Positions 2 to 19,966 are shown, counted from the first letter of the stretch. The stretch is 43,471 bases of DNA from Candidatus Omnitrophota bacterium (GCA_020057015.1 JAGVGS010000107.1:1-43471); one strand, 5' to 3'. The notes: generated from the letters alone by a model not told the origin. Numbers and translations: made by a program.

Positions 2-1963
2 CGCTTCGATGCTGTCGATGCGCTGGAGTTCTACGGAGAGCCTGACGTGACGCGCTTCTACAACATGCAGGTGTATTGGCTCAACTTCGAGGCAGACAGC
101 CCAGCGCGCATGACAACCCGGCAGAATGGCGATGCGCGCGGCTTCGAGGTGCTCAGCTACCCGCACACGCTGCACCTAGAGGGCAACGAGGCGTATTACT
201 CCGAATCGCCCACCGACGCGCATTGGTTCTTTGACCATGAAATCTATGCCGGGGACAGCTACGACATCACGCTGGACGTCGATCAGCTCGCCCACACCGG
301 CGAGGACGCCAAGCTCATCGTGGGACTGCAAGGGCTCTCTACGTGGGGCTACGGCGACAGCGCGCACAAGCGCCAGCACGCCCTCCTGCGCCTCAATGGG
401 GAGCAGGTCGGCGAGCACGAGTGGGACAATGATACGTATGCGCGCCTGGTGCTCTCCGTGCCGGTGAACCAGTTGCAAGAGGGGGCCAATGTCCTCACCG
501 TCGAAGCCACCGATGAGGAGGGGACCCTGGAGCAATTCTTCATGGTCGATGCGGTGCACCTGACCTATCCGCGAAAACTCGTGGCCGGCGAGGAGGGCCT
601 CGCCTTTCGCACCGCGGCGCGTCCGAAGGCGCGCTACACCATCGAAGCCCTCCCCAGCGCCGAGGTCCTCGCCTATGAGCTGCACAGCGATGGCGCCGTG
701 ACCCACATCGTCGATCCGCTCGTGGAGGTGGAGGGCGAGCACTACCGCGTCTCGCTGGCCGATGGCACGCTGCGCGGGGTCTCGTTGCTGGAGCTCAGCA
801 CGGCCGAGGCAGCAGAGCCCGGCTCCGACGCGCTGCTGGAGCCGGCGCGCACGAAGACCCGCCGCCATTATGTGGTGGTGCCGGCCTCAGCGGTAAAGAC
901 CGTGGCGGCCTTAAGCTACCATGCGCCTTCTGAGCTGGAGATCAAGAACCTGCCTGCGTATCTCGTGGTGGCACCTGCGGTCTTCCATGAGACCTTGAAG
1001 CCGTTCGTGGAGCATCGTCAGGGCCTGCTGGTTGATCTCGAAGAGGTCTACAATCTGTTCAGCTATGGCCTGCCAGAGCCCCAGGCGCTGCGCCGCTTCC
1101 TCCTATTGGCCGCCGAGCATGGGGCGAAGATGGCACTGCTGGTGGGCGATGGGCACTTCGACTACCGCAATTTCCAGGGCAGTGATGTGCCGCAATACGT
1201 GCCGGTCGCGCTGGTGCCCAACCGCTTTGGAGAAACAGTCTCAGACGCGTACTACGCCACCCCAGAGGGGGCGCTGGTGCCGAAGCTGGCCCTTGGCCGC
1301 TGGCCGGTGAATTCCGTTGAAGAGTTGCAGGCAGTCATTGAGAAGACCTTGGCGTATGAAGGGCAGGCCAGCCACGGCGCGGTGATGCTGGCCGATGATG
1401 AGCCGGTATTCCGCGCCACCCTCGATCAACTCGCTCAGCAATTACCCTATCCGGATGAAGTCGTGCGCATCAACTATGGCGAGTACGACGCGCTGGGCGC
1501 CAAAGCCAAGCTGCTGGAAGCCGTGAACAGCGGCACCGGTCTGCTGGCGTACGATGGCCATGGCGGGGTGCAATTGTGGTCCTCGGCCCAGCTGCTGACG
1601 GCTGGCGATGTTGACACGATGACCAATGAGGGTCAGTATCCGGTGTTGCTGGCCCTAGGCTGTCTCTCTGGTTATTTTGGGTATCCCGTCGACATGGACA
1701 GCTTGGCTGAGACGCTGCTGCGCGCAGAGGCTAAAGGCGTGGTCGCGGCCTTCTCACCCAGTGGCCTCACCTCCTCGGTGGAGCAGCAGACCTTTGCCAC
1801 CGCCCTCTTGCAAGCGCTCGTGACTGACCACCAATCGCTGGGTACGGCCCTGTTGCACGCGTACCAGGTCGTAGAAGCGCAACTGCCGGCCAGCAAAGCT
1901 CAAGCCCTAATCCAGACGTTCAACCTGCACGGCGATCCTGCCCTGACTCTGCGGCTTCAGTAA
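2..1963 (+). CDS. Peptidase C25 (gingipain)-like cysteine peptidase, 5' end cut by the window edge
   Basis: The frame is open from nt 2, with no stop before the GTG at 47 used by the ORF track. Stop is TAA at 1961-1963. The C-terminal half has His/Cys dyad contexts typical of the caspase-fold C25 family: LLAYDGHGGVQLW and PVLLALGCLSGYF. A LLVGDGHFDYRNF block lies upstream of these. Confidence 0.6.
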   Translation, partial: RFDAVDALEFYGEPDVTRFYNMQVYWLNFEADSPARMTTRQNGDARGFEVLSYPHTLHLEGNEAYYSESPTDAHWFFDHEIYAGDSYDITLDVDQLAHTGEDAKLIVGLQGLSTWGYGDSAHKRQHALLRLNGEQVGEHEWDNDTYARLVLSVPVNQLQEGANVLTVEATDEEGTLEQFFMVDAVHLTYPRKLVAGEEGLAFRTAARPKARYTIEALPSAEVLAYELHSDGAVTHIVDPLVEVEGEHYRVSLADGTLRGVSLLELSTAEAAEPGSDALLEPARTKTRRHYVVVPASAVKTVAALSYHAPSELEIKNLPAYLVVAPAVFHETLKPFVEHRQGLLVDLEEVYNLFSYGLPEPQALRRFLLLAAEHGAKMALLVGDGHFDYRNFQGSDVPQYVPVALVPNRFGETVSDAYYATPEGALVPKLALGRWPVNSVEELQAVIEKTLAYEGQASHGAVMLADDEPVFRATLDQLAQQLPYPDEVVRINYGEYDALGAKAKLLEAVNSGTGLLAYDGHGGVQLWSSAQLLTAGDVDTMTNEGQYPVLLALGCLSGYFGYPVDMDSLAETLLRAEAKGVVAAFSPSGLTSSVEQQTFATALLQALVTDHQSLGTALLHAYQVVEAQLPASKAQALIQTFNLHGDPALTLRLQ

Positions 1964-3058: not shown

Positions 3059-3889
3059 ATGTCTGAGCACGACGTCAGCCTCGGTATCGCCGGTCTGACC
3101 TTGCGTTTGCTGGATGACGTTCTCGTGCCTCCCGAATGGCTCACCACCACGTGCGCACCCTTCCAGGTCTCGGCGGCCCCGGCAGCGAACGCGCTGACCG
3201 TGGCCATTCATCGCGACCCGTCTTTTGAGCGCGGCGAGGACCAGTTGCACCTGCACCCTGGGCAGGAGCCTGGGGGCTTTCACATGCGCGGGTATGATTT
3301 TTTGATCGCGCGCCGCCGCTGCGGGTTGCCCTTTGAGGTGGAGGCGCATCCAGACGCCGGTATGGCCGGGGTGCTGCGCTGGGTGACGAGCTTAGCACTG
3401 CTCGAGCAAGGCGGCCTGCTGCTGCACGCAGCTTCCGGTGCCCTGGAAGGTCGTGGGATTATTTGTGCCGGCCCTTCGGGCAGCGGGAAAACCACCCTCT
3501 CTCGCTTGCTGCAATCCCATCTGCAGCTGTTTACCGATGAAACCACCGCAGTGCAGTTCACCGGGGCCATGCCGCTGGCCTATGCCACCCCGTTTGCCGG
3601 AGAGCTGGGTCCGGTCTCGGGTCCGGCTGCTGCTCCGTTAGAGGTGGTGTGCTTTTTAAAGCACGCAAAGGCTCATGCAGTGCGTGCGCTGCACCCTGCC
3701 GAAGCGGTCGAGCGTCTCATGGGCTGCACGTTCTTGCCGCGCGATGGCACCCTGTGGATCACCACAGCGTTGGCGACGGCCGAGCGGCTCGCGCGGGCCG
3801 TACCGTGTCTGGAATTGGCGTTTGCTCCTGAAGCCTCAGTCGTGGAGGTGGTGCGCGATGTCCTCGCTCAACCCGTGTCGCCGGCCTGA
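3059..3889 (+). CDS. HPr kinase/phosphorylase-like P-loop protein (candidate peptide kinase)
   Basis: ATG at 3059. The motif GGLLLHAASGALEGRGIICAGPSGSGKTTLSRLL resembles the HprK C-terminal domain with Walker A. The 3' end overlaps the next gene by 32 nt. Confidence 0.65.
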   Translation: MSEHDVSLGIAGLTLRLLDDVLVPPEWLTTTCAPFQVSAAPAANALTVAIHRDPSFERGEDQLHLHPGQEPGGFHMRGYDFLIARRRCGLPFEVEAHPDAGMAGVLRWVTSLALLEQGGLLLHAASGALEGRGIICAGPSGSGKTTLSRLLQSHLQLFTDETTAVQFTGAMPLAYATPFAGELGPVSGPAAAPLEVVCFLKHAKAHAVRALHPAEAVERLMGCTFLPRDGTLWITTALATAERLARAVPCLELAFAPEASVVEVVRDVLAQPVSPA

Positions 3890-4148
3890 AATTGCGTGGC
3901 GCGTCATCGACGGGGAAGCTGTCGTGGTAAACCCACGGGCCGGCCTCATCTATCCGTTTAATCCGGTCGCCACGCGCTGCTGGGAGCTCGCCGATGGCAC
4001 GCGCACTGCCGAGCAGATCATCATGGCCCTCTATGAAGAGTTCGATGTGCCGCGCGAGCAGCTCGAGCGCGACATGCAGGCATTCCTCGCCACGCTGCAC
4101 GAGAAGGGGCTGCTCATGACCGCTACGGTGATGGCAGCAGCGGCGTGA
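3858..4148 (+). CDS. PqqD-family peptide chaperone (RiPP recognition element)
   Basis: Internal ATG at 3858 within track ORF 3675..4148, preceded by GGAGG at 3844-3848. The 96-aa product MSSLNPCRRPEIAWRVIDGEAVVVNPRAGLIYPFNPVATRCWELADGTRTAEQII..FLATLHEKGLL has PqqD-like size and pattern. The longer track ORF would overlap the kinase gene out of frame. Confidence 0.75.
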   Translation: MSSLNPCRRPEIAWRVIDGEAVVVNPRAGLIYPFNPVATRCWELADGTRTAEQIIMALYEEFDVPREQLERDMQAFLATLHEKGLLMTATVMAAAA

Positions 4149-5437
4149 TGGGCGGCTGTAGCCAGGGAGGATGCGGCAGCGGGTGCGGTGCTGGGGCCTT
4201 GCCCTCAGCGCCCCAAGTGCTTGACCTCACAGATCGCATCGCGCAGTCAGTGCCGTCCAACCCGCTGCGCGTGGAGAGCGCCGAGGCGCGCGAGCATCTG
4301 AACCGGATTTTTTTGAAGGTCGACCAGCGCAAAATCCCCTTTTGGACCCACCTCGATCTCACCTACAAGTGCAACACCGACTGTATCCACTGTTACTGCC
4401 AGCACCTGGACCCAGCCTTCGGCGGCAAGTACGATAAGCAGGATTTAACGACTGCTGAGATTAAGGGGTTGCTCGACCAGTTGGCCGACTACGGCGTGCT
4501 GAATCTCACGCTCTCCGGCGGCGAGCTGCTCGTGCGCAAAGACTTCTTCGAGATCGCGTTTTACGCCAGCCGCGAGAAACACTTTGCCCTCTCGTTTTAC
4601 ACGAACGGCACGCTGGTCAACGAGCGCATTGCCGCGCGCGTTGCGGAGCTTTGCCCGGTGGCGGTGGAGATCAGCCTGCAAGGGGCCACGGCCGAAGTGC
4701 ACGACTACGTGGTGCAGCGGCCCGGGTCGTTTCAGCGGGTCATCGCTGCGGCCCGCATGCTCCGCGCCCGCGGTGTCAATGTCGTGCTCAAAACCACGCT
4801 GATGCAGCCGAACTTTCATCAAGCCGATGAGCTCGTGCGCCTGGCCGGCAGCCTGGGGGCCAGTGCCTACCGCACCAGCCTCGATCTGACCCCTAAGAAC
4901 GATGGGGATACCAGCGTGCAGCGATTCAACCTCACCGACGAGCAATTTGCAGACTACATCGCGCGCGACTACCCTGAACCCTTTCAGTATCGCGAGCCCA
5001 TCTCGCTTGAGGAGGCCCGCCAGCGATCGACCTGTGGCACTGGCACCGTGGCCTGCTATATCTCGCCCTATGGCGATGTCTACCCGTGCATCCAACTACT
5101 GATTTCGATGGGCAATATCCGCGAGCGCTCGTTCAAGGAGATTTGGGAAGCCCCCTCTGAGCTGCGCCGTAAGCTCGAGGCGATTCAAACCTACGGTGAT
5201 CTGCCGGATTGCCAAACCTGCGAATACGTGCAGCTGTGTCAGCGCTGCCACGGGCTGGCCTATCTGGAAACCGGGGATCTGACCAAGTGCTATAAGATGG
5301 TGCTGCGTTCAGCCAAGCTGAACACCGAGGTGAATGCCCGCATGGCGCCCAAGGTCGAATCCAGCGTGGTGCCGGTCGCGGCCGGGCCGATGCTCATCGA
5401 GCGGCAGTCGCCGGCGTTCACGAGTTTCAGTCGTTAA
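4145..5437 (+). CDS. Radical SAM/SPASM-domain peptide maturase
   Basis: Start is GTG 4145 or ATG 4148, overlapping the PqqD stop (GTGATG). CX3CX2C cluster is CNTDCIHC. SPASM-type C-terminal cysteines are CGTGTVACYISPYGDVYPC (CX12GX4C) and CQTCEYVQLCQRC (CX2CX5CX2C). Confidence 0.9.
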   Translation: MMGGCSQGGCGSGCGAGALPSAPQVLDLTDRIAQSVPSNPLRVESAEAREHLNRIFLKVDQRKIPFWTHLDLTYKCNTDCIHCYCQHLDPAFGGKYDKQDLTTAEIKGLLDQLADYGVLNLTLSGGELLVRKDFFEIAFYASREKHFALSFYTNGTLVNERIAARVAELCPVAVEISLQGATAEVHDYVVQRPGSFQRVIAAARMLRARGVNVVLKTTLMQPNFHQADELVRLAGSLGASAYRTSLDLTPKNDGDTSVQRFNLTDEQFADYIARDYPEPFQYREPISLEEARQRSTCGTGTVACYISPYGDVYPCIQLLISMGNIRERSFKEIWEAPSELRRKLEAIQTYGDLPDCQTCEYVQLCQRCHGLAYLETGDLTKCYKMVLRSAKLNTEVNARMAPKVESSVVPVAAGPMLIERQSPAFTSFSR

Positions 5438-5460
5438 CCACCACAGAGGAGGGATGCATC

Positions 5461-5625
5461 ATGGCACCACCAGCACGCAAGCGGGCCTATGAGCCGCCAA
5501 AGTTGCACAGCGTGCAGGCCATTGAGGCCGGCTCGGCGGTATGTTGCAAGACCAATAGCGGAGCGTGCTCAGCCGCTGCCAAGTCCGGCGGCGGTAAGGG
5601 CCAGCGCTCCAAGGACACCTCCTGA
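5461..5625 (+). CDS. Candidate RiPP precursor peptide, 54 aa (absent from the ORF track)
   Basis: Hand translation gives MAPPARKRAYEPPKLHSVQAIEAGSAVCCKTNSGACSAAAKSGGGKGQRSKDTS. ATG is at 5461 and TGA at 5623-5625. A strong RBS GAGGAGGG at 5446-5453 lies 7 nt upstream. The ORF sits 24 nt after the rSAM stop and 5 nt before the next gene. Confidence 0.6.
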   Translation: MAPPARKRAYEPPKLHSVQAIEAGSAVCCKTNSGACSAAAKSGGGKGQRSKDTS

Positions 5626-5630
5626 CGCTT

Positions 5631-7037
5631 GTGCGCGCCTCGGGGAAGACATTTCAGGCGACAGCGCCTCTGGATCGGACAGCAGAGGCGCTGTTTGTTT
5701 GCTCCCTATCGCAAGAGGGTCTGGTGTGGATCACTGCGCGGGGCAACAGCATGGCGCCCACGTGGACCGATGGGGCGCTGCTGGGTGTCGTCGCGGCGCG
5801 CGCCGAGACCTTGCGGCCGGGCGATGGCATCGTGTTTCACAATGGGGAGCAGGTCGTGGCCCACCGCTTGCTGCGCCGGCGCTATGAGGAGGGCTGGTGG
5901 TGGCTGCAGCCCAAAGCCGATGCAGGGTGCACGCCCGAGCCGTGGCAACCGGAGACCGCGCTCATCGGCCGTATTGTGGCTATCGAGGCCCGCGGTCGGC
6001 AGCAGCGCTGGGACCAGGGATGGGGCCTGCTGCGGCAGCGCGCGGCCGGGTGGTGGCAGCAGGCGCATGTGGCAGGGCATGGGGCATGGCAGCAGCTGAC
6101 CAGGCAGGGCAGCCGGATCATCTCTCCCTGGCCCTGGCCGGTGCCCGAGACTGACCCGCGCCTGACGTGGGGCCGCAATATGTTCTTGCGCGAGCGATTG
6201 GCCGCGTGTGTGCGGGTGCTTGCTCCTGCCGGCATCGAATCGATGCTGCTCAAGGGCCAGGCATTGATCTTAACCGGCGTGATGGACCCTGCCGAGCGCC
6301 CGATGGCTGACGTTGACCTGTTGGTCAAACAGGAGCAGGCCGCGAGTGTGCTGCATCTGCTGCAAGCCGCCGGCTACCGCCTGCGCGGGCCGACTGATGC
6401 GCTGCGCGCCTCGCTGGATGACCAGCTGCCCTTTGAGGATCCCTCGGGCGTGGTGTTTGACGTGCATTGGGGCGTGGTGACCGGCGGCTGGCGGTTTCGC
6501 GACGTGATCCGCCTGGATTATGAGGGACTGTGGGCGCGCAGCCAGCGCTGGGATCTTGACGGCGTACCCGTGCGCGTCATGGCTCCGGTGGACCAGCTGT
6601 TGCACTTATGCTCGCATCTCATCCTGAGCGGGGCGACCGGGCACGTGTGGTGGCAAGACCTGCGCCGGTTTCTAGAGCACCAGGGCAAGGCGATCGATTG
6701 GAGCGACTTGCTGATCCAGGCGCGCCAGGCTCGCTTGCGCACGATCGTCTGGCTGTCGTTGGACACGCTCTGGCAGCGCTGGCAAGTGCCGGTGCCGCCT
6801 CAGATCGTGCGTGCGCTGCGTCCGGCTCCGTGGCGCCGGTGGCTGCTGCGCAGCCTGCTGCCAGCGGATCTCTCCACCGCGGCGGATGAGTCCCGCTGGC
6901 AGCGCCATACGCGTGAGCTGCTGCTGATGGACCGCCCGATCGACCGCCTGCGCTTGCTGTGGCGCTGGAGCCATCCGCCGGCGGCCTGGCATGCGTATAA
7001 AGCAGGGACAGTCACTAATTTCTGTTGTGCCGACTAG
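5631..7037 (+). CDS. Fusion protein: N-terminal S24/S26-like peptidase domain plus C-terminal uncharacterised nucleotidyltransferase (NTP_transf_5/PF14907-like)
   Basis: GTG start at 5631. The N-terminus ITARGNSMAPTWTDGALLGV..PGDGIVFHNGEQVVAHRLLRR matches the LexA/signal-peptidase-type GxSM..GD..v pattern. The C-terminal half has LLKGQALIL..ERPMADVDLLV..AAGYRL..VFDVHWGVV, typical of PF14907. The last 12 codons run into the palindromic repeat. Confidence 0.65.
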   Translation: MRASGKTFQATAPLDRTAEALFVCSLSQEGLVWITARGNSMAPTWTDGALLGVVAARAETLRPGDGIVFHNGEQVVAHRLLRRRYEEGWWWLQPKADAGCTPEPWQPETALIGRIVAIEARGRQQRWDQGWGLLRQRAAGWWQQAHVAGHGAWQQLTRQGSRIISPWPWPVPETDPRLTWGRNMFLRERLAACVRVLAPAGIESMLLKGQALILTGVMDPAERPMADVDLLVKQEQAASVLHLLQAAGYRLRGPTDALRASLDDQLPFEDPSGVVFDVHWGVVTGGWRFRDVIRLDYEGLWARSQRWDLDGVPVRVMAPVDQLLHLCSHLILSGATGHVWWQDLRRFLEHQGKAIDWSDLLIQARQARLRTIVWLSLDTLWQRWQVPVPPQIVRALRPAPWRRWLLRSLLPADLSTAADESRWQRHTRELLLMDRPIDRLRLLWRWSHPPAAWHAYKAGTVTNFCCAD

Positions 7038-7063
7038 GGTCCAGGGCACAAATTAGTGACTGT
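6999..7063 (+). repeat. Palindromic ~75-bp element, copy 1, proximal part (interrupted by the IS)
   Basis: AAAGCAGGGACAGTCACTAATTT (6999-7021), then CTGTTGTGCCGACTAGGGTCCAGGGCAC, then AAATTAGTGACTGT. The rest of the right arm, CCCTGCTTT, resumes at 8143. It is near-identical to copy 2 at 11476-11550. Confidence 0.85.
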
Positions 7064-8137
7064 TTGGGTTCAAGGTCCTAGTGCAACACTTGGTATCCTG
7101 GTCCATCCAGGAACAAGGAGTTGCACATGTCAAGGTCCCGGCACTTGGACTTGCGTGAACGCGAGGAGTTCAGCCGCATGTTAGCCGCGAATCAGAGTGT
7201 GCGCATGATTGCCCGCTGCCTGCGTCGCGCTCCCAGCAGCCTGACCCGGGAGCTGCAGCGGCATCGAGCCTCGCGGGTGACGTATCGGGCGGTCTTCGCA
7301 CAACACCGGGCGCAGCGCTGGGCCACGCAACCTCGGAAGCCCCGCACGCTCGCGGTGGAGCCCCACCTGCGGGCCGTCGTCTTCACGCTCCTCGCGCAGC
7401 ACTGGTCCCCCGAACAGATTGCGCGCGGGCTGCCGCAGCGGTATCCTGACGACCCGACCATGCGCATCTCTCACGAAGCCATCTACACGTACCTGTACGT
7501 CTTGCCCCGGGGCGCCTTGAAGAAGGAGCTCATTCGAGTCCTGCGCCACCGGCATCACGTCCGCCGTCCCCGTGGCAAGGCGCGTCTCACGTCCCGACCG
7601 ATCCAGGACGCCATCAGCATTGAGGAGCGCCCGGCCGCGGTGGCGGATCGCACCCTGCCCGGCCACTGGGAAGGCGATCTGCTCATGGGCCACGGCAACG
7701 CCTCGGCCCTGGGCACCCTGGTGGAGCGCACGACCCGGTTCACGCTCTTGGTCCCCTTGCGCGGCAAGGATGCTCCCAGCGTCCGGCAGGCGTTCGCCCG
7801 CGAGCTGCGCACGCTGCCACAGCAGTTGCGCCAGTCGCTGACCTACGACCAGGGCCAGGAGATGGCCCAACATCGGCTCTTCACCGCCCAGACGCAGATG
7901 CGCGTCTACTTCGCGCATCCGCACTGCCCGTGGGAGCGGGGCACGAACGAGAACACCAACGGGCTCTTGCGGCAGTTCTTCCCCAAAGGCACTCGCTTTA
8001 CCACCATCAGCCGCCGACAGATCAAACACATTCAGGCGCTCCTCAACGACCGGCCACGCAAGGTCCTGACCTGGCACAGTCCAGCGAAGGTCTTCAAGGA
8101 CGTCTTGGAACGTGTTGCACTAGAACCTTGAATCCAC
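7064..8137 (+). mobile_element. IS30-family insertion sequence (~1.07 kb)
   Basis: Terminal inverted repeats are TTGGGTTCAAGGTCCTAGTGCAACAC (7064-7089) and the reverse complement of 8112-8137, GTGGATTCAAGGTTCTAGTGCAACAC, matching at 23/26 positions. A single transposase ORF has its stop inside the right IR. Apparent flanking duplication is ACTGT (7059-7063 and 8138-8142) or a shorter subset of it. Confidence 0.9.
7127..8131 (+). CDS. IS30-family DDE transposase
   Basis: ATG at 7127 is preceded by AAGGAG at 7115-7120; the track start TTG at 7121 is less likely. It has an N-terminal HTH region and the IS30 hallmarks LPGHWEGDLL and YFAHPHCPWERGTNENTNGLLRQFFPKGT. Confidence 0.95.
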   Translation: MSRSRHLDLREREEFSRMLAANQSVRMIARCLRRAPSSLTRELQRHRASRVTYRAVFAQHRAQRWATQPRKPRTLAVEPHLRAVVFTLLAQHWSPEQIARGLPQRYPDDPTMRISHEAIYTYLYVLPRGALKKELIRVLRHRHHVRRPRGKARLTSRPIQDAISIEERPAAVADRTLPGHWEGDLLMGHGNASALGTLVERTTRFTLLVPLRGKDAPSVRQAFARELRTLPQQLRQSLTYDQGQEMAQHRLFTAQTQMRVYFAHPHCPWERGTNENTNGLLRQFFPKGTRFTTISRRQIKHIQALLNDRPRKVLTWHSPAKVFKDVLERVALEP

Positions 8138-8151
8138 ACTGTCCCTGCTTT
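8138..8151 (+). repeat. Distal remnant of palindromic element copy 1, including the putative target duplication
   Basis: ACTGT followed by CCCTGCTTT completes the right arm AAATTAGTGACTGTCCCTGCTTT. That arm is the exact reverse complement of 6999-7021. Confidence 0.7.
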
Positions 8152-8311: not shown

Positions 8312-8375
8312 AGATAGCGGAGCCTTTCGGAATCCGGCGTTTGTGTTTATACTAGCAGCACATCACAGTGTGTAT

Positions 8376-9182: not shown

Positions 9183-9193
9183 CGGGGTAAAAC

Positions 9194-10222: not shown

Positions 10223-10239
10223 GGAAGGAGGCGAACGCG

Positions 10240-11475: not shown

Positions 11476-11550
11476 AAAGCGGGGACAGTCACTAATTTCT
11501 GTTGTGCCGACTAGGGTCCAGGGCACAAATTAGTGACTGTCCCCGTTTTT
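11476..11550 (+). repeat. Palindromic ~75-bp element, copy 2 (intact; bidirectional terminator-like)
   Basis: The 23-nt arms AAAGCGGGGACAGTCACTAATTT (11476-11498) and AAATTAGTGACTGTCCCCGTTTT (11527-11549) are complementary apart from one G:T position. An inner stem TTGTGCC/GGCACAA extends the hairpin. A T-run follows and an A-run precedes. Confidence 0.85.
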
Positions 11551-11571
11551 GTTGCTATTCTTAAGGGTAAC

Positions 11572-13098
11572 ATGTGCTGCCTGAAACGCTTGCCGACTCT
11601 ATTCTTGGTAGCAAGCCCTCTATCGTTCCTCTTAGCGCCTTCGCTGGCATGGGCCGCTGCGGCCGAAGGCAGTGAGACCCTCAAGTGGCTGGTGATCGGC
11701 CTCGTGGTCGTGGCCACCCTCGTCATCGGCCAATTGATTTACGGGTTCTCCCAAAAGGATAAGGCGATCAAGGCTAAGGCCGAGACGCCTGAGGCCCCCG
11801 CCGCGCCGACCCCGGCCATCTACCACCCGAAAGCCGTGGTGCCCTCCATTCTTGATCAGCTGGCGCAAGCCGGTGTCAACCCCAAGCAGCGCGAGCAGCT
11901 GGCCCAGTCGCTTTCGACCATTGTGACCAAGACCGTCGACGCGCAGGTGGATGCCGTCAAGCAAGAGGTCAAGAAGCACTACGACCAAGTCTTGGAGGAG
12001 AAGCAGTGGGCCGAGCGCGCGCTGCAGCGCAAGTATCAAGAGGCGCTGATTGACCGCAACCAGACCGCGCAGGTGCTCGAGAGTATTGCCGAAGGCCTAG
12101 TGGTGGTGAACAACAAGGGCGAAGTGGTGATGATGAATCCGGCCGCCGAGAAACTGCTGGCGGTGCGGCAGGCCGAGCGCGTGGGCAAGCCGCTGGTCGA
12201 ATCGCTCGATGACGATCAGATCATCTCGCTGGTGCAGGGCTCGACCGAGGGCCGCGAGATCGTGGTCAATACGAAGCAAGAGAGCACCAAGCGCGTGCTG
12301 CGCGCGAGCAACGCCGTGGTCACCGATCAGGATGGCCGGGCCGTGGGCATGGTGGCGGTGCTGCATGACGTGACGAAGCAGAAGGAAGTGGAGGATCTCA
12401 AATCCGAGTTCGTCTCCAAGGTCAGCCACGAGCTGCGCACCCCGCTCATGGCGATCCAGTACGCGCTCTCGCTGCTGGATGATCAGATGGCCGGCAGCAT
12501 GTCTGAGGACGCGCAGGCCTTCGTGTCCCTGACCCGTCGTAATCTGGAGCGGCTCAACTTGCTGGTGAGCGACCTGCTCGATCTTTCCAAGCTCGAGGCC
12601 AAGAAGATGGAGCTGCGGCTGGAGCTGATCGCGCTCGGCCCGATTCTGCAGACCGTGTGCGATACGATGGACGCGTGGGCCAAGAGCAAGCAGATCACGC
12701 TGGTGCGGCGCGTGGTGGAAGAGGTGCCCATGATGCGCCTGGATGCGTCGCGCCTGATTCAGGTGCTCACCAACCTGGTGGGCAACGCCATCAAATTCAC
12801 GCCGGAAAAGGGCAAGATCACCGTCGAGGGCAAGCTGGCGGCGGATCAGCAGCACGTGGAAGTGAGCGTCATCGACACCGGGGTGGGGATTGCCCCCGAG
12901 GATCTGCCCAAACTGTTCAACAAGTTTCAGCAAGTGGGCGAGCGCACCGCCAGCGACATGAGCGGCACGGGGTTAGGGCTCGTGATCGCCAAGGAGATCG
13001 TCGAGCTGCACCAGGGCCGGATCTGGGTGGAGAGCGATGGCAAGCGGGGCGCGCGGTTTGTGTTTACCCTGCCGCTGCACGCGGCGGCCGCGGCGTGA
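11572..13098 (+). CDS. Membrane-bound PAS-domain sensor histidine kinase
   Basis: ATG 11572 is chosen because the track start GTG 11533 lies inside the repeat. It has a signal/TM segment, a coiled-coil and a PAS-like region (ESIAEGLVVVNNKGEVVMMNPAAEKLL). H-box is FVSKVSHELRTPL, N-box LVGNAIKFT, G-boxes DTGVGI and GTGLGLVIAKEIVELHQGRIWVES. Confidence 0.9.
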   Translation: MCCLKRLPTLFLVASPLSFLLAPSLAWAAAAEGSETLKWLVIGLVVVATLVIGQLIYGFSQKDKAIKAKAETPEAPAAPTPAIYHPKAVVPSILDQLAQAGVNPKQREQLAQSLSTIVTKTVDAQVDAVKQEVKKHYDQVLEEKQWAERALQRKYQEALIDRNQTAQVLESIAEGLVVVNNKGEVVMMNPAAEKLLAVRQAERVGKPLVESLDDDQIISLVQGSTEGREIVVNTKQESTKRVLRASNAVVTDQDGRAVGMVAVLHDVTKQKEVEDLKSEFVSKVSHELRTPLMAIQYALSLLDDQMAGSMSEDAQAFVSLTRRNLERLNLLVSDLLDLSKLEAKKMELRLELIALGPILQTVCDTMDAWAKSKQITLVRRVVEEVPMMRLDASRLIQVLTNLVGNAIKFTPEKGKITVEGKLAADQQHVEVSVIDTGVGIAPEDLPKLFNKFQQVGERTASDMSGTGLGLVIAKEIVELHQGRIWVESDGKRGARFVFTLPLHAAAAA

Positions 13099-14135
13099 TG
13101 GTGCGCATCAGCCAACTGGTCAAGCCCACGGCCGAGCCGATCGAGCCACCCCCCGCTCTTGTGCAGACCCCTGAGCCCAGGAGCCCCAGCGGAGCGCCTG
13201 TGGCGGTCCCCCTGCGAGTGGCCGGACTCCCGCGCGCGCAGCCAGGCGTGCACAGCGAGGAGGCCCAGCAGCTCTATGAGGCGCTGATGAAGGAATGCGC
13301 CCGCGTGTTTGACGAGGCGCGCAGCGAGCAGCCGATTACGCTGCAAGCGCTGCCCGCGCTGGCCAACGCGCTGGTGGCCCAGGTGCGGGGTGGGAATGAG
13401 CGCCTCAGTCGCTTGAGCAGCGCGGTGGCCGGTGGCTTTGCGCTGCCGCGGCATGCGGTCAACGTGGCGGTGCTGGCCTGCCGGGTCGGGTCGGTGCTGG
13501 GGCTCTCTGAGCTGCAATTGCAGGAAGTGGCCCTCGCCGCGCTGCTGCATGATATCGGCATCATCGGCATGGAGCATCTGGTGCACCTGCCCGCGCATTT
13601 GACGCCGGAGCAGCGCACCCGCGTGCGCGAGCATCCGCTCTTAGCCCACCGGCTGTTGCAGCGCACCCAGGCGATTTCTCCCCTAGTCTGCGAGCTGATC
13701 TTGCAGCAGCACGAGCGGGAAGATGGCAGCGGCTACCCGCGGCAGCTGGCCGGGGCAGAGATTCAAGAGCCGGCGCAATTGCTCGGCTTGGCCCAGGTCT
13801 TTGAAGCGCTCACGCACGATCGGCCGTATCGCGGACACTTGCCGCCGGCTGAGGCGCTGCGCACGCTGGTGCAGGATCAGCGCGCGGGGTTTCGCGACCG
13901 GCTGCTCAAAGGGCTGCTGCAGACGATTCCGGTATATCCGGTGGAAAGCTGGGTACGCCTGAGCACCGGGGAATTGGCCCAGGTGGTGGCGGAGATGCCC
14001 CACCACCCGCTGTCGCCGACCGTGGCCGTGCGCTTTGACCCGCAAGGCCAGCCGCTCGGCCCTGTGCGCACGGTGGCTCTGGCGCGCGATCGCAGTCTCT
14101 CGATCCTGCGCGCGGTGCCTGCTCCGGCGGCCTGA
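13098..14135 (+). CDS. HD-GYP domain protein (cyclic-dinucleotide phosphodiesterase family)
   Basis: ATG 13098 overlaps the kinase stop (TGATG). Motifs are ALLHDIGII, HPLLAHRLL and QQHEREDGSGYPRQL. The track's longer ORF from 12657 overlaps the kinase gene out of frame. Confidence 0.9.
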   Translation: MVRISQLVKPTAEPIEPPPALVQTPEPRSPSGAPVAVPLRVAGLPRAQPGVHSEEAQQLYEALMKECARVFDEARSEQPITLQALPALANALVAQVRGGNERLSRLSSAVAGGFALPRHAVNVAVLACRVGSVLGLSELQLQEVALAALLHDIGIIGMEHLVHLPAHLTPEQRTRVREHPLLAHRLLQRTQAISPLVCELILQQHEREDGSGYPRQLAGAEIQEPAQLLGLAQVFEALTHDRPYRGHLPPAEALRTLVQDQRAGFRDRLLKGLLQTIPVYPVESWVRLSTGELAQVVAEMPHHPLSPTVAVRFDPQGQPLGPVRTVALARDRSLSILRAVPAPAA

Positions 14136-14137
14136 GG

Positions 14138-14947
14138 ATGTACGCCTCGTATTGGGGCCTGCGTGAAAAGCCCTTCGAGAACACGCCAGACCCGCGCTTT
14201 TTTTACGCCTCCCAGCAGCATCGCGAAGCCGAAGCGCGCATGCTGTACTGCATCCGCGAGCGCAAAGGGGCCGGCCTGCTCACCGGGGTGTTTGGCTGCG
14301 GCAAGACCGTGGTAGGGCAGGTGGTGCTCAAGGAGCTCAACCAGGAGCGCTATCGCACCGCGGTGCTCACCAACCCCCGCCTGAATGACCTCGATTTGCT
14401 GCGGCTGATCGCGCACTACCTGGGGGCCTCGCCGCTGGCCGCCACCAAGGCCGACGTGCTGATCCAGCTCGAGATGATCCTGACGGAGAACGCCAAGGAA
14501 GGGCGCGATAGCGTGGTGCTGATTGACGAGGCGCACACGATTCAAAGCCCCGAGGTGTTCGAAGAGCTGCGCCTGCTGCTCAATTGCCAGTGGCAGCAGC
14601 GCTTTCTGCTCACCCTCCTGCTGTTCGGCCAGCCAGAGCTGGCGCGCAACATCGACCAGAACAAGCCCTTGGAGCAGCGCATCGGCGTGAAGGCCTCGCT
14701 CGGGCCCATGAGTTTTGAGGAAACCAGCGCCTATGTGGTGCATCGGCTGCGCGTGGCCGGGCACGAGGAGCCAGGCGGCGTGTTTTCCTACGAGGCGCTG
14801 CGCGTGGTGCACGACTCCACCGGCGGCATCCCCCGGCGGGTCAACCGGCTGTGCGACATGCTGCTGCTGGCCGGCATGGGGGCCCGTACCGCCCGCATCG
14901 AGCCGCCGCTGGTGCAGGAAGAAGTGGCTGGGCTGCAGACGGCATGA
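14138..14947 (+). CDS. ExeA/GspA/MshM-like AAA ATPase (AAA_22)
   Basis: N-terminal YWGLREKPFENTPDPRFFYASQQHREAEARMLY. Walker A is GVFGCGKT and Walker B VVLIDEAH. No peptidoglycan-binding extension is present. Confidence 0.8.
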   Translation: MYASYWGLREKPFENTPDPRFFYASQQHREAEARMLYCIRERKGAGLLTGVFGCGKTVVGQVVLKELNQERYRTAVLTNPRLNDLDLLRLIAHYLGASPLAATKADVLIQLEMILTENAKEGRDSVVLIDEAHTIQSPEVFEELRLLLNCQWQQRFLLTLLLFGQPELARNIDQNKPLEQRIGVKASLGPMSFEETSAYVVHRLRVAGHEEPGGVFSYEALRVVHDSTGGIPRRVNRLCDMLLLAGMGARTARIEPPLVQEEVAGLQTA

Positions 14948-15762
14948 ACTATACCGCGCACTGGGGCTTAAGCGCCCTGCCGTTTGAGAACACGCCGGAC
15001 CCGCGCTTTCTCTACCAATCAGCTCAGCACGAGGAAGGCCTTGCGCGCTTGCGCTATGTCGTGGAGGGGGCGAAAGGGGCAGCGGTGCTCACGGGTGTCT
15101 TTGGCTGCGGTAAGACGCTGCTCGCGCGCTCGCTGCTGAGCAGCCTCTCGTCCAGCCGCTATCGCATGGCGTATCTCGCCAACCCCATGATGTCCGAGGT
15201 AGAGCTGCTGCATGGCATTGCGCACAAGCTCAACGTGCCGGATCTGCCCCCGCGCCGCTCGGATGTGCTGGTGGATGCGCTGCTGGATGGCATCGAGCAC
15301 GCGCTGCGGGAGAATCAGCGCGACGGCAAGCAGACCCTGGTCATCGTCGATGAGGCGCATGTGATTCGGGAAGAGCGGGTCTTCGATGAGCTGCGGCTGC
15401 TGTTGAATTTTCAGGATGACGACCGCTTTTTACTGACGCTGATCCTCATGGGCCAACCGGAGCTGAAGGAGATTATCGACCGGCACAAACCGCTGGCGCA
15501 GCGTATCTGCATGGGGTATCATCTGATTGCCTTCACCGAAACCGAGACCGGTGGCTACCTGCAGCATCGGCTGCAAGTGGCCGGGGCCAGCCGGACGCTG
15601 TTTGATCCCGGTGCGGTGCAGGCGGTGCAGGAACTGAGCGGCGGCATCCCGCGGCGCATCAACCAGATCGCCGACTTGGCGCTGCTCACCGGCATGGGCC
15701 GGCAAGCAAGCCACATCGATGCCGCGATCGTGCAAGAGGCCGCGGCCAGCGTCGGAGTGTAA
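14944..15762 (+). CDS. ExeA/GspA/MshM-like AAA ATPase, tandem paralogue
   Basis: ATG 14944 overlaps the upstream stop (ATGA). Motifs are HWGLSALPFENTPDPRFLYQSAQHEEGLARLRY, GVFGCGKT and LVIVDEAH. Confidence 0.8.
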   Translation: MNYTAHWGLSALPFENTPDPRFLYQSAQHEEGLARLRYVVEGAKGAAVLTGVFGCGKTLLARSLLSSLSSSRYRMAYLANPMMSEVELLHGIAHKLNVPDLPPRRSDVLVDALLDGIEHALRENQRDGKQTLVIVDEAHVIREERVFDELRLLLNFQDDDRFLLTLILMGQPELKEIIDRHKPLAQRICMGYHLIAFTETETGGYLQHRLQVAGASRTLFDPGAVQAVQELSGGIPRRINQIADLALLTGMGRQASHIDAAIVQEAAASVGV

Positions 15763-16580: not shown

Positions 16581-16602
16581 CCACCGCGGCCTTTTATTTT
16601 GC

Positions 16603-18725: not shown

Positions 18726-18756
18726 AGTGTCAGACACTTGAAGTGTCTGACACTTT
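18724..18756 (+). repeat. REP-like perfect palindrome, left flank of the RAYT gene
   Basis: AAAGTGTCAGACACTT G AAGTGTCTGACACTTT has 16-nt arms that are exact reverse complements. It begins inside the stop codon of the upstream gene. Confidence 0.9.
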
Positions 18757-18866
18757 CTGATAAGGTAAACGCACGTTCTGGAATTCCTCGTACGACCCAT
18801 TCCGTTTTACCCTCGCGCGAAATCCTGTGCACATGTGTAGATTTTTTCCACCGCAGCGAGGCTGCC

Positions 18867-19941: not shown

Positions 19942-19966
19942 AGCCCTGCAGGAGCTTAACGCCACG

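What the first reader, a model, noticed from the sequence alone, without database searches (positions are those of the whole stretch)
3059..7037. Compact RiPP-like cluster joining lasso-type recognition and tailoring parts to a radical SAM/SPASM maturase
Five tightly packed, partly overlapping genes make up the cluster. They are an HprK-like P-loop protein (GPSGSGKTT), a PqqD/RRE, an rSAM/SPASM enzyme, an untracked 54-aa Cys-containing peptide with a near-perfect RBS, and an S24/S26-like peptidase fused to a PF14907-type nucleotidyltransferase. The rSAM/SPASM enzyme carries CX3CX2C, CX12GX4C and CX2CX5CX2C motifs. Established knowledge links several of these parts to lasso peptides. HPr-kinase homologues phosphorylate the C-terminal Ser of lasso-peptide precursors (paeninodin type). 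PF14907-type nucleotidyltransferases decorate that phosphate further (pseudomycoidin type). PqqD-like RREs bind the leader. Here no asparagine-synthetase-like lasso cyclase and no transglutaminase-like leader protease is present on either side, and a SPASM radical SAM enzyme occupies that position instead. Inference: the product is an rSAM-crosslinked peptide (thioether or other) with a phosphorylated or further decorated C-terminal Ser. I do not recognise this combination as a described RiPP class.
Basis: partly seen in the sequence, partly recalled or inferred. Interest (0 to 1): 0.85.

Follow-up and report, generated by a model that had tools for sequence, protein, structure and literature searches.

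The report
Radical-SAM variant of phosphorylated-peptide (LPP-like) cassette
This is a real, widely conserved gene cassette that makes a small modified peptide, combining the recently described kinase, chaperone, signal-peptidase and nucleotidyltransferase machinery of 'linear polyphosphorylated peptides' with an extra radical-SAM enzyme, and related clusters often sit next to polysaccharide-export genes.

Summary
Window 3059-7037 carries five co-oriented, tightly packed genes:
- a ScmC/HprK-like P-loop kinase
- a PqqD-type RRE
- a radical SAM/SPASM enzyme
- a 54-aa precursor
- a signal-peptidase-like domain fused to a PF14907 nucleotidyltransferase

The same five parts recur in all 11 close loci I fetched through the rSAM, in the same order in the nearest clade and rearranged in the Omnitrophota clade. 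The small ORF is under purifying selection. None of the 11 close loci has a lasso cyclase or B2 protease, and IS30 sits in a palindrome downstream of the operon, so this is not a truncated lasso locus.

Four of the parts are the defining core of the LPP family (Popov et al., Nat Commun 2026). ScmC + PqqD + rSAM/SPASM is NCBIfam/TIGRFAM's uncharacterised 'SynChlorMet cassette'.

I found three things not described in the literature available here:
- The two are joined in one cassette.
- There is a precursor superfamily with a YxxPx[L/I/V] leader, a leader end of E-(A/V/T), exactly three Cys in 41 of 44 peptides, and a C-terminal Ser in 38 of 44.
- It occurs in many non-Bacillota phyla. In the nearer relatives it lies inside EPS loci, and in this clade beside a PorU-like C25 peptidase.

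The chemistry (thioether crosslinks, C-terminal phospho-Ser, hexose or nucleotide addition) is inferred, not shown.

The parts
2..1963 (+). PorU-like Peptidase_C25, cut by the contig start. A conserved upstream neighbour in this clade.
   Evidence: PF01364 E=4e-63 and NF033707 T9SS_sortase 132 bits, below its cutoff. A C25 gene lies directly upstream of the cassette in all six loci of the clade that have upstream sequence: window, L002, L003, L092, L093, L094. The full-length version is about 1400 aa. The Omnitrophota versions have signal peptides.
3059..3889 (+). ScmC/LppK-type P-loop kinase of the HprK/PEPCK fold. Walker A is GPSGSGKTT (residues 138-146), followed by TDET (residues 159-162).
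   Evidence: Precomputed PF27840. TIGR04352, TIGR04249 and TIGR04355 local hits. AF2 model pLDDT 93.4; Foldseek finds PEPCK-ATP, then HprK/P 1knx, 1kkl and 2qmh. H123, G138, G141, G143 and K144 are invariant across 58 sequences.
3858..4148 (+). Discrete PqqD-type RiPP recognition element (96 aa).
   Evidence: PF05402 E=6e-19. Solved relatives are TbiB1 3.7e-8, LppB 9x8z 2.1e-5 and TfuB1 1.3e-4. Start codon and RBS were read from the sequence.
4145..5437 (+). Radical SAM/SPASM peptide maturase with a full 7-Cys SPASM and a Cys/Gly-rich N-terminal extension.
   Evidence: PF04055 and PF13186. Invariant Cys residues. It falls below the cutoff of every named NCBIfam family. Foldseek's top hits are SkfB, CteB and SuiB.
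5446..5453 (+). Shine-Dalgarno sequence GAGGAGGG for the precursor gene.
   Evidence: Read directly from the sequence.
5461..5529 (+). Predicted leader of the precursor (residues 1-23). It has a basic N-terminus, Y10-E-P-P-K-L15, and ends in I-E-A23.
   Evidence: YxxPx[L/I/V] occurs in all 44 peptides by construction, since it was the search pattern. The E(-2) and A/V/T(-1) pattern occurs in 31-38 and 36 of 44. It is homologous to the LppA leader end F-E-T (PMC13381572).
5530..5625 (+). Predicted core GSAVCCKTNSGACSAAAKSGGGKGQRSKDTS plus stop. Cys28, Cys29 and Cys36 are at 5542-5547 and 5566-5568. C-terminal Ser54 is at 5620-5622.
   Evidence: CC[KR]x5C and a terminal Ser are invariant in the 12 clade members. 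Across 44 peptides, 41 have exactly three Cys and 38 end in Ser. Purifying selection.
5631..6100 (+). S26B (Sec11/SipW/LppS-type) leader-peptidase domain with Ser40, His78 and Asp97.
   Evidence: PF00717 and TIGR02228 hits. Invariant GxSMxP, HR and KxD motifs. SEC11C 7p2q E=2.6e-7. LppS catalytic residues are S29/H68/D93 (PMC13381572).
6101..7037 (+). PF14907 (NTP_transf_5, PsmN/LppN-type) nucleotidyltransferase-fold domain fused to the peptidase. It carries the D-V-D motif.
   Evidence: PF14907 E=1.2e-33. The DxD motif is conserved in the alignment. The fusion recurs in L001-L004, L013, L017, L040 and L077.
7005..7063 (.). REP-like palindrome overlapping the last codons of the fusion gene. 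It is the IS30 target.
7050..8151 (+). IS30-family element with 40-nt inverted repeats. It lies downstream of the cassette, not inside it.
   Evidence: NF033563 E=3e-87. Inverted repeats at 7050-7089 and 8112-8151.
12657..15762 (+). One HD-GYP and two AAA_22 ATPase genes. These are recurring neighbours of the cassette in related loci.
   Evidence: Pfam hits. The same families lie next to the cassette in L003, L007, L008 and L010.

Best explanation
This is an operon for a ribosomally made, post-translationally modified peptide. Its machinery is the LPP-type set (kinase, RRE, signal-peptidase-like leader peptidase, PF14907 enzyme) plus one radical SAM/SPASM maturase.

Proposed course of events:
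1. **Recognition.** The 54-aa precursor is bound through its leader motif Y10-x-x-P-x-L by the discrete PqqD RRE. This is inferred from homology to lasso B1 and LppB.
2. **Core modification.** The rSAM/SPASM enzyme modifies the core at or through its three invariant cysteines (C28, C29, C36). The first Cys sits at a fixed distance from the leader motif. Cys-to-carbon thioether crosslinks are the most likely chemistry (inferred).
3. **Phosphorylation.** The ScmC/HprK-type kinase phosphorylates a Ser, most likely the conserved C-terminal Ser54, possibly several times (inferred from paeninodin, pseudomycoidin and LPP).
4. **Elaboration.** The PF14907 domain builds on the phosphate, with a hexose as for PsmN or with a nucleotide (inferred).
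5. **Leader removal.** The fused S26B peptidase domain (Ser40/His78/Asp97), helped by the RRE, removes the leader after I-E-A23. This is inferred by homology to LppS cutting after F-E-T.
6. **Export and role.** The 31-residue product is exported by an ABC-2 transporter that related loci encode just upstream of the contig edge. It acts at the cell surface or matrix, where a secreted PorU-like C25 peptidase and, in relatives, EPS machinery are co-encoded.

Shown here: gene content, conservation, domain identities, catalytic residues, precursor family features and genomic context. Inferred: every chemical step and the biological role.
For: **Gene set and motifs:**

**Conservation of the cassette**
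- The five parts recur, each time with a conserved small ORF, in L001-L011 and L092.
- In the genome-contig scan, 46 of the 80 kept rSAM-homologue loci carry ScmC. PqqD lies within 6 kb in 44, the S26 peptidase in 35, PF14907 in 19 and a peptide in 35. All five parts occur together in 29.

**Precursor superfamily**
- The Tyr of the YxxP motif lies 20 or 18 residues before the first Cys in 41 of 44 peptides.
- 41 of 44 have exactly three Cys, and 38 of 44 end in Ser.
- At -2 the residue is E in 31 and Q in 7 of 44. At -1 it is A, V or T in 36 of 44. The first Cys is set as core +5, the anchor used for this numbering.
- The ORF is under purifying selection.

**Individual enzymes**
- Kinase: PF27840 and an HprK/PEPCK fold. 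Its D160-E161 matches the position of the PsmK D158/D159 metal site (PMC6993621).
- Peptidase: SEC11-like triad.
- RRE: nearest to lasso TbiB1 and to LppB.
- rSAM: structurally nearest to the thioether synthases SkfB and CteB.

**Experimental precedent**
- LppK, LppB, LppS and LppN (PMC13381572). In that paper's supplement the kinases are typed by TIGR04249, TIGR04352 and TIGR04355, the same models that hit here.
- PsmK and PsmN phosphorylation followed by hexosylation (PMC6993621).
- Nucleotidyltransferase fused to the leader protease in lasso clusters (PMC8498205).
Against: - No product has been observed for any member.
- In LPP the kinase phosphorylates core Ser3, not the C-terminus. A Ser near the junction (Ser25) exists in the window clade.
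- 6 of 44 peptides do not end in Ser, yet their loci keep ScmC.
- LppN showed no activity in the heterologous host.
- The rSAM's best NCBIfam scores are to AhbD and MftC (decarboxylation chemistry), and its Foldseek E-values to anSME and PqqE are close to those for SkfB and CteB. Thioether formation is therefore not discriminated.
- No exporter is present in the window itself.
- All NCBIfam hits for the kinase, RRE and rSAM are below curated cutoffs.
Confidence: 0.72

Rival explanations
1. Same cassette, but the kinase works as in LPP. It polyphosphorylates a Ser just after the leader junction (Ser25 in GSAVCC) to license leader cleavage. The conserved C-terminal Ser then has another role, such as recognition by the C25 peptidase or exporter, or as a crosslink acceptor.
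For: LppK phosphorylates core Ser3, and unphosphorylated precursor is cleaved poorly (PMC13381572). The window clade has Ser at core +2.
Against: Ser or Thr near the junction is not conserved. The Omnitrophota peptides have GAA, GAL or GAT, and position +3 is S or T in only 13 of 44. The terminal Ser is present in 38 of 44. Lasso-type HprK homologues do target a C-terminal Ser (PMC6993621, PMC8498205).
Confidence: 0.2
2. The rSAM/SPASM enzyme does not make thioethers. It installs another modification, such as epimerisation, a C-C or C-N crosslink, oxidative decarboxylation, or Cys oxidation. The three Cys would then serve as disulfide or metal ligands in the product.
For: The best family scores are to AhbD, MftC and NirJ. 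SuiB, PqqE, anSME and EpeE are also among the Foldseek hits.
Against: The three Cys are the only near-universal core residues, and the first lies at a fixed distance from the RRE motif. SkfB and CteB are the top structural matches.
Confidence: 0.3
3. The peptide is not a free secreted natural product but part of the envelope or EPS machinery. The phospho(glyco)sylated C-terminus would be extended by, or attached to, polysaccharide, or the PorU-like C25 sortase would process or anchor the peptide at the surface.
For: The cassette is embedded in Wza, Wzz/tyrosine-kinase, Wzy_C and flippase loci in L005-L014, L036 and L038. Such genes were found in none of the 35 ScmC-negative rSAM loci. C25 lies directly upstream in 6 of 6 clade loci. 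LPP and paeninodin clusters also sit in capsule loci and are co-induced with an EPS gene (PMC13381572). PsmN adds hexose to the phosphate (PMC6993621).
Against: This rests purely on context. Most of the distant ScmC-positive loci showed no EPS genes within 10 kb. The window's own 43 kb has no Wza, Wzz or Wzy genes.
Confidence: 0.12
4. An ordinary lasso-peptide locus that lost its cyclase and B2 protease through the IS30 insertion.
For: Lasso-like leader motif, RRE, kinase and PF14907 enzyme.
Against: Homologous loci without IS30 end at the same gene and have no Asn_synthase or transglutaminase. No ORF of at least 300 aa in the 94 fetched loci has the SGGLDS motif, and the five SGGVDS hits look like GuaA/MnmA-type PP-loop enzymes by motif only. 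IS30 sits in a palindrome after the stop codon. The core has no Asp or Glu at positions 7-9 to act as acceptor for a macrolactam.
Confidence: 0.01
5. The small ORF is a chance ORF, and the rSAM acts on a non-peptide substrate of polysaccharide synthesis.
For: The peptide matches no Pfam or NCBIfam family.
Against: The ORF is conserved in position and sequence across phyla, with an excess of synonymous change. A discrete RRE and a leader peptidase are always co-encoded.
Confidence: 0.01

Closest known systems
LPP (linear polyphosphorylated peptide) clusters of Bacillota: LppA/K/B/S/N/D (Popov et al., Nat Commun 2026, PMC13381572)
   Same: - HprK-like kinase typed by TIGR04249, TIGR04352 and TIGR04355.
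- Discrete PqqD RRE.
- Archaeal/ER-type signal peptidase (TIGR02228, Ser-His-Asp) as leader peptidase.
- PF14907 enzyme.
- No lasso cyclase.
- Leader with YxxPx[V/L] that ends in hydrophobic-E-small.
- Location in polysaccharide loci.
   Different: - An rSAM/SPASM maturase is present here. 'Radical' does not occur in that paper's text or in its held supplements, one of which was truncated when stored.
- The core is short and conserved, with three Cys and a terminal Ser, instead of long variable C-termini.
- No conserved Ser3.
- The peptidase is fused to PF14907.
- The exporter is ABC-2 type rather than MsbA.
- A PorU-like C25 peptidase is present.
- It is found outside Bacillota, whereas LPP was stated to be restricted to that phylum.
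SynChlorMet (SCM) cassette of TIGRFAMs/NCBIfam: ScmC TIGR04249, ScmD TIGR04248, ScmE TIGR04250, ScmF TIGR04251
   Same: ScmC-type P-loop protein + PqqD homologue + PqqE-like rSAM/SPASM. The window proteins hit all of these models, and the kinase is Pfam ScmC PF27840.
   Different: - All scores are far below the equivalog cutoffs: 24 vs 125, 37 vs 100, 108 vs 400.
- There is one rSAM, not two.
- From my memory of the TIGRFAM description, SCM has no identified precursor and no peptidase or PF14907 component in its definition.
- Loci with two rSAMs (L057, L073, L086, L088, L091) carry longer peptides of the same superfamily.
Paeninodin/pseudomycoidin-type phosphorylated lasso peptides (PadeK/PsmK kinase, PsmN)
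   Same: - HprK-type kinase and PF14907 enzyme acting on a precursor that ends in Ser.
- YxxP-type leader bound by a discrete B1 RRE.
- The nucleotidyltransferase is sometimes fused to the leader protease (PMC6993621, PMC8498205).
   Different: - No Asn-synthetase-like cyclase and no B2 cysteine protease.
- A serine signal-peptidase-like leader peptidase instead.
- An rSAM enzyme and a Cys-rich core.
Sactipeptide and ranthipeptide maturation (SkfB, CteB, AlbA, PapB)
   Same: SPASM-type rSAM with two auxiliary-cluster motifs, a Cys-containing core and RRE-dependent recognition. SkfB and CteB are the nearest solved folds.
   Different: The RRE is a separate protein, not an N-terminal domain. Scores are below all family cutoffs. 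Additional kinase, nucleotidyltransferase and S26B peptidase are present. The crosslink is not demonstrated.

Membership tests
Lasso peptide BGC | Asn-synthetase-like macrolactam cyclase (C protein) | tested here: not met
   No Asn_synthase among the window's large ORFs or in the precomputed Pfam of L001-L011 and L092-L094. No ORF of at least 300 aa has the SGGLDS motif, and the five SGGVDS hits look like GuaA/MnmA-type PP-loop enzymes by motif only.
Lasso peptide BGC | Transglutaminase-like B2 leader protease | tested here: not met
   No such Pfam family appears in the window ORFs or in the neighbour tables (same calls). An S26B serine peptidase is present instead.
Lasso peptide BGC | B1-type RRE and a YxxPxL leader motif | tested here: met
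   PqqD E=6e-19. The nearest solved protein is lasso TbiB1 at 3.7e-8. The leader reads Y10EPPKL15.
LPP (PMC13381572) | SpI-like archaeal-type signal peptidase with a Ser-His-Asp triad as leader peptidase | tested here: met
   TIGR02228 hit at 26.5 bits, below the 51.85 cutoff. Ser40, His78 and Asp97 are invariant. SEC11C and SEC11A are the best PDB hits. Cleavage activity was not tested.
LPP (PMC13381572) | Discrete PqqD RRE | tested here: met
   PF05402. It aligns full-length to LppB (9x8z_B) at E=2.1e-5.
LPP (PMC13381572) | HprK-like kinase of the TIGR04249/04352/04355 type | tested here: met
   The same three models hit and are the ones used in the paper's table. PF27840. HprK/PEPCK fold.
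LPP (PMC13381572) | NTP_transf_5 enzyme | tested here: met
   PF14907 at 117 bits, above the 31.2 cutoff.
LPP (PMC13381572) | MsbA-like exporter | tested here: not met
   None in the window. Relatives carry an ABC-2 type pair instead.
LPP (PMC13381572) | Leader consensus YxxPxVLxHQxIxFET followed by core xxS (phospho-Ser3) | tested here: inconclusive
   YxxPxL and the I-E-A end match in pattern, but Ser3 is not conserved. No direct sequence of LppA was available for alignment.
LPP (PMC13381572) | Linear product with phosphorylation as the primary modification and no other core-modifying enzyme | tested here: not met
   An rSAM/SPASM gene sits inside the operon and is conserved with it.
SynChlorMet cassette (NCBIfam equivalogs) | Scores above the ScmC, ScmD, ScmE and ScmF cutoffs, and two rSAM/SPASM genes | tested here: not met
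   Scores are 24.4 vs 125, 36.9 vs 100, 108 vs 400 and 74.5 vs 400. There is only one rSAM gene.
Pfam PF27840 ScmC | Match to the family model | tested here: met
   Precomputed PF27840.1 on the window protein P0126 and on almost all of the 61 homologues listed. The model is absent from the local Pfam copy, so no score is available.
HPr kinase/phosphorylase (PF07475) | Match to Hpr_kinase_C | tested here: not met
   No PF07475 hit at E<=0.01. The resemblance is only at fold level: HprK/P at E=4e-5 to 8e-4, behind PEPCK.
Sactipeptide/ranthipeptide | rSAM with a SPASM domain and a Cys-bearing core | tested here: met
Sactipeptide/ranthipeptide | Cys S to C-alpha, C-beta or C-gamma thioether in the product | not testable with these tools
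   Needs mass spectrometry or NMR of the product.

The most novel reading that the evidence does not exclude
A phylum-spanning family of radical-SAM-crosslinked peptides, phosphorylated and then glycosylated or nucleotidylated at the C-terminal Ser, forms an integral part of exopolysaccharide or capsule systems. The phospho-Ser peptide could serve as primer, anchor or carrier for a glycan. Alternatively, it could be processed or attached at the cell surface by the co-encoded PorU-like C25 'sortase'. Either would be a previously unknown kind of peptide-polysaccharide conjugate biosynthesis. It would also give a function to LPP and paeninodin-type clusters in capsule loci.
Probability: 0.1. Interest if true: 0.9.

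Novelty: new variant of a known kind. Interest (0 to 1): 0.62.

Why it matters
- **It links two separately catalogued systems.** The experimentally founded LPP family (2026, reported as restricted to Bacillota) and the long-uncharacterised SynChlorMet-type ScmC/PqqD/rSAM cassettes appear to belong to one large superfamily.
- **It supplies a missing piece.** The precursor peptides were not known. Here they have a clear signature: a YxxP leader, an E-(A/V/T) cleavage site, three Cys and a terminal Ser.
- **The superfamily is large and untapped.** The ScmC profile finds 4,794 cluster representatives at E<=1e-30, mostly from uncultured bacteria. This is a sizeable source of new peptide chemistry: rSAM crosslink plus phosphorylation plus a PF14907 modification.
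- **The biological role becomes testable.** The recurrent placement in EPS loci, together with HD-GYP, AAA_22 and PorU-like C25 genes, makes the still unknown role of these phosphorylated peptides (biofilm or capsule?) open to experiment.

Tried and rejected
- **Truncated lasso locus:** rejected (and the neighbourhood tables).
- **LexA-type S24 cleavage at Ala-Gly:** this was my first idea. I replaced it with an S26B assignment after finding His78 instead of Lys and the SEC11 matches. My first -3/-1 guess (cut after EAGS) was then replaced by the LPP-homology site after IEA.
- **PF07475 membership:** not met.
- **PDB sequence search with a ScmC profile:** it found only generic P-loops. Fold search was needed.
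- **Word-indexed search with the peptide:** it returned only 4 sequences, so the family was collected from six-frame scans of the loci instead.
- **Genome-contig scan:** The organism of the window therefore stays unidentified, and look-up of the window protein's contig failed.
- **Literature searches:** searches for SynChlorMet, PF27840, TIGR04249, and for HPr kinase + PqqD + radical SAM, found nothing. My first search was swamped by the unrelated acronym SCMC.
- **RRE-Finder and structure-based RRE papers:** neither mentions the kinase or peptidase parts.
- **C25 HMM:** my first one was built partly from out-of-frame sequence, so its counts are underestimates. C25 presence in the clade rests on the Pfam tables instead.

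Full report
**1. What is in the sequence**

Window 3059-7037 holds five co-oriented genes.
- The first gene (3059-3889, 276 aa) carries GPSGSGKTT. Its record in the protein collection is typed as Pfam PF27840 'ScmC'. Locally it hits NCBIfam HprK_rel_A (3e-6), ScmC (1.6e-5) and HprK_rel_B (1.7e-5), all below their cutoffs. It does not hit PF07475.
- The PqqD gene really starts at ATG 3858, behind GGAGG at 3845-3849, and overlaps the kinase gene by 32 nt.
- The rSAM gene starts at GTG 4145 or ATG 4148, overlapping the PqqD stop codon. It has PF04055 + PF13186. Its CX3CX2C, CX12GX4C and CX2CX5CX2C cysteines are invariant in 22 homologues.
- After a 23-nt gap containing GAGGAGGG comes the 54-aa ORF at 5461-5625.
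- Five bases later comes the 468-aa fusion of a peptidase domain (residues 26-116) and PF14907 (residues 182-377).

There are three corrections. The kinase is ScmC-type rather than PF07475. The peptidase is S26B rather than S24. The small ORF is already called 'hypothetical protein' by JGI and NCBI.

**2. It is conserved, and the small ORF is a gene**

The closest rSAM homologues (64-73% identity) lie in loci L001-L004 with the same order: ScmC, PqqD, rSAM, small ORF, peptidase-PF14907.
- A second clade (about 47% identity, Omnitrophota and others; L005-L011) has the same parts rearranged. There the peptidase is a separate protein of about 150 aa.
- All 12 loci (the window and L001-L011) carry a 52-55-aa ORF matching Y-x-x-P-x-[LV], then [LI]E[AV]G, then CC[KR]-x5-C, and ending [ST]S-stop.
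- Between the window and L001, 19 of 46 aligned codons differ synonymously and 13 non-synonymously.

The refutation test 'homologous loci lack a conserved small ORF' therefore fails to refute.

**3. It is one branch of a large superfamily**

A scan of GTDB species representatives gave 80 loci with rSAM relatives at 28-40% identity. I searched these with HMMs built from the 12 loci.
- 46 of the 80 carry a ScmC homologue.
- Of those 46, PqqD lies within 6 kb in 44, the S26 peptidase in 35, PF14907 in 19, and a candidate precursor in 35. All five parts occur together in 29.
- By their record titles, these are MAGs of Omnitrophota, Kiritimatiellia, Lentisphaerae, Elusimicrobia, Planctomycetota, Acidobacteriota, Nitrospirota, Desulfobacterota, Chloroflexota, Myxococcota, Verrucomicrobiota, Clostridia and others.

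The 44 distinct peptides I collected share several features.
- A basic N-terminus and a YxxPx[L/I/V] motif. That motif was my search pattern, so its presence in all 44 is by construction.
- The Tyr of the motif lies 20 residues before the first Cys in 28 peptides and 18 residues before it in 13.
- Exactly three Cys in 41.
- A C-terminal Ser in 38.

None of the six representative peptides I scanned matches Pfam or NCBIfam. A profile of 58 ScmC sequences finds 4,794 representatives of 50%-identity clusters at E<=1e-30, and 20,270 at E<=1e-10, among 1.84 billion.

**4. Identity of the parts**

- **Kinase.** The AF2 model has pLDDT 93.4. Foldseek finds ATP-PEPCK (E about 1e-7), then HprK/P 1knx, 1kkl and 2qmh (E 4e-5 to 8e-4). 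This is the HprK/PEPCK P-loop fold. H123, G138, G141, G143 and K144 are invariant, and D160 is nearly so. D160-E161 sits where PsmK has its essential D158/D159 (PMC6993621).
- **Peptidase.** GxS40MxP, H78-R and K95-x-D97 are invariant. The best solved matches are human SEC11C and SEC11A (2.6e-7 and 2.4e-6), ahead of bacterial SPase I and lambda cI. It is therefore an ER/archaeal (SipW-like) Ser-His-Asp peptidase.
- **RRE.** The best solved relatives are lasso TbiB1 (3.7e-8), LppB 9x8z (2.1e-5), lasso TfuB1 (1.3e-4) and PqqD (8e-4).
- **rSAM.** It falls below the cutoff of every named family. The best scores are AhbD 167 of 500, MftC 156 of 265, StsB 115 of 625 and ScmE 108 of 400. The AF2 model has pLDDT 83. 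The nearest folds are SkfB, CteB, SuiB, BlsE, anSME and PqqE.
- **PF14907 domain.** It keeps a D-V-D motif, like the essential D134/D136 of PsmN (PMC6993621).

**5. Not a broken lasso locus**

- No Asn-synthase or transglutaminase family occurs among the window's large ORFs.
- None occurs in the Pfam tables of the related loci.
- In the 94 fetched loci, no ORF of at least 300 aa has the SGGLDS motif. The five SGGVDS hits look like GuaA/MnmA-type PP-loop enzymes by motif only, and none lies next to a cassette.
- The IS30 element (inverted repeats 7050-7089 and 8112-8151) is inserted into a REP-like palindrome that begins at 7005, after the body of the last gene. The same palindrome recurs at 11482-11543 and 40054-40115.
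- Loci without IS30 end the cassette at the same gene.

**6. Comparison with what is known**

The decisive literature hit is Popov et al., Nat Commun 2026 (PMC13381572).
- They define 'linear polyphosphorylated peptides' (LPP). The clusters have an archaeal-type signal peptidase LppS (S29/H68/D93), a discrete RRE LppB, an HprK-like kinase LppK, an NTP_transf_5 enzyme LppN and an MsbA exporter. They have no cyclase and often lie inside capsule or EPS loci.
- The leader consensus is YxxPxVLxHQxIxFET, with cleavage after T(-1). LppK polyphosphorylates core Ser3. LppS needs LppB. LppN was inactive in the heterologous host.
- Their supplementary table types the kinases by TIGR04249 (67), TIGR04352 (65) and TIGR04355 (11). 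These are exactly the models that hit the window protein.
- 'Radical' occurs nowhere in the text or in the held supplements, one of which was truncated when stored. LPP is described as restricted to Bacillota.

The window cassette therefore contains four of the five LPP core genes, lacking only the MsbA exporter, plus an rSAM/SPASM enzyme. NCBIfam's SynChlorMet cassette (ScmC, ScmD, ScmE, ScmF) already records ScmC + PqqD + rSAM/SPASM as an uncharacterised system. From my memory of the TIGRFAM description, it has no known precursor. The window proteins hit those models far below cutoff, and only one rSAM is present.

Using the first Cys as anchor (defined as core +5), the family peptides have E at -2 in 31 of 44 (Q in 7 more) and A, V or T at -1 in 36 of 44. 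This mirrors the LppA leader end F-E-T. It places the window's cleavage site at A-I-E-A23 | G24-S-A-V-C-C and gives a 31-residue core.

**7. Context**

In the nearer relatives the cassette lies among genes for Poly_export, Wzz/GNVR/AAA_31, Wzy_C and flippase proteins, an ABC-2 transporter pair, AAA_22 ATPases and HD-GYP proteins.
- With HMMs for these, EPS genes appear in ScmC-positive loci (Wzz in 11, Poly_export in 9 and HD-GYP in 13 of 57). They appear in none of the 35 ScmC-negative rSAM loci.
- The window itself has HD-GYP and two AAA_22 genes at 12.6-15.8 kb. It has no Wza, Wzz or Wzy genes.
- In the window's own clade a PorU-like Peptidase_C25 of about 1400 aa lies directly upstream in all six loci that have upstream sequence. 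In L092 an ABC-2 exporter precedes it.
- In the window the C25 gene is cut by the contig start, so an exporter may lie just beyond the edge.
- The Omnitrophota C25 proteins have signal peptides.

**8. Mechanism and verdict**

Shown: the gene set, its conservation, the catalytic residues, the precursor signature and the context.

Inferred, in order:
- RRE-guided recognition of the leader.
- rSAM modification at the three Cys, with thioethers most likely.
- Phosphorylation by ScmC, most likely at the C-terminal Ser54.
- Elaboration of the phosphate by the PF14907 domain.
- Leader removal by the S26B domain after IEA.
- Export, and a role at the cell surface or matrix.

The main uncertainties are the phospho-site (LPP uses Ser3), the rSAM chemistry, and the biological role.

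This is a new variant of a known kind: an rSAM-bearing, non-Bacillota relative of LPP that also gives SynChlorMet-type cassettes a candidate precursor family.

Noticed in passing
window 7005-7063, 11482-11543, 40054-40115; IS30 at 7050-8151: A REP-like palindrome (GGGACAGTCACTAATTT ... AAATTAGTGACTGTCCC) occurs three times, with 0 matches expected by chance. The IS30 element is inserted into the right arm of the first copy. The last ~10 codons of the peptidase-PF14907 gene (…GTVTNFCCAD) are encoded by the left arm of that copy.
   Followed up: partly
window 2-1963; L092 3788-8002; L094 1741-5907; L005 2424-7982: A large PorU-like Peptidase_C25 (T9SS-sortase model hit below cutoff) lies immediately upstream of the cassette in every locus of this clade that has upstream sequence. 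In the Omnitrophota loci it sits inside the cassette. Signal peptides are present on the two Omnitrophota versions I read (L005, L007). Its role is unknown; it may process the peptide or act as a sortase.
   Followed up: partly
window 4145-4210; L001 1283-1330: The rSAM enzyme of this clade has a Cys/Gly-rich N-terminal extension (MMGGCSQGGCGSGCGAG in the window, MSGCAGCNSCGSG in L001). It is absent from the 357-aa Omnitrophota homologues and is disordered in the AF2 model (residues 1-42 have pLDDT below 50).
   Followed up: no
L057 12957-13256, L073 8503-8811, L086 11846-12178, L088 12076-12309, L091 3639-4037: Loci with two rSAM/SPASM genes (SynChlorMet-like) carry longer peptides of the same superfamily. 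These have the motif YxxPx[LIV]xxxxLxxxQAILSxC, and four of the five end in G-x-R-[PA]-S. They are candidate precursors for the SCM cassette, whose precursor was, to my recollection, never identified.
   Followed up: partly
window 12657-17637: Two HD-GYP (HD_5) proteins, two AAA_22 ATPases and a HAMP protein follow a PAS histidine kinase (11533-13098). HD_5 and AAA_22 genes flank the cassette in L003, L008 and L010, and an AAA_22 gene does in L007. This suggests a regulatory link through c-di-GMP or an ExeA-like ATPase.
   Followed up: partly
window 8343-11433: Three genes for pseudopilin-like proteins lie between IS30 and the histidine kinase. 9194-10222 has an N_methyl motif, and 8343-9182 has a hydrophobic N-terminus. 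N_methyl genes also lie near the cassette in L007 and L010.
   Followed up: no
window 21740-38956: A single 5,738-aa ORF with Kre9_KNH Ig-like domains is probably a giant surface protein. Two IS200-like Y1 transposase genes lie just upstream (18738-19538, 19916-21217).
   Followed up: no
window 2030-3049; L002 3716-4348; L092 8019-8651: The gene between C25 and the kinase is not conserved. The window has a GDSL-like hydrolase with a weak, below-cutoff hit. L002 and L092 instead have a 210-aa protein with no family hit; the L002 one, the only one I read, looks multi-pass membrane.
   Followed up: no
L005 9243-9689, L007 9223-9693 and the other stand-alone S26B peptidases: The separate peptidases of about 150 aa end in a hydrophobic segment (for example RIFGLCLAFFLPCI). 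In the fused versions this segment is replaced by the linker to PF14907. It may be a membrane anchor or a docking helix.
   Followed up: no
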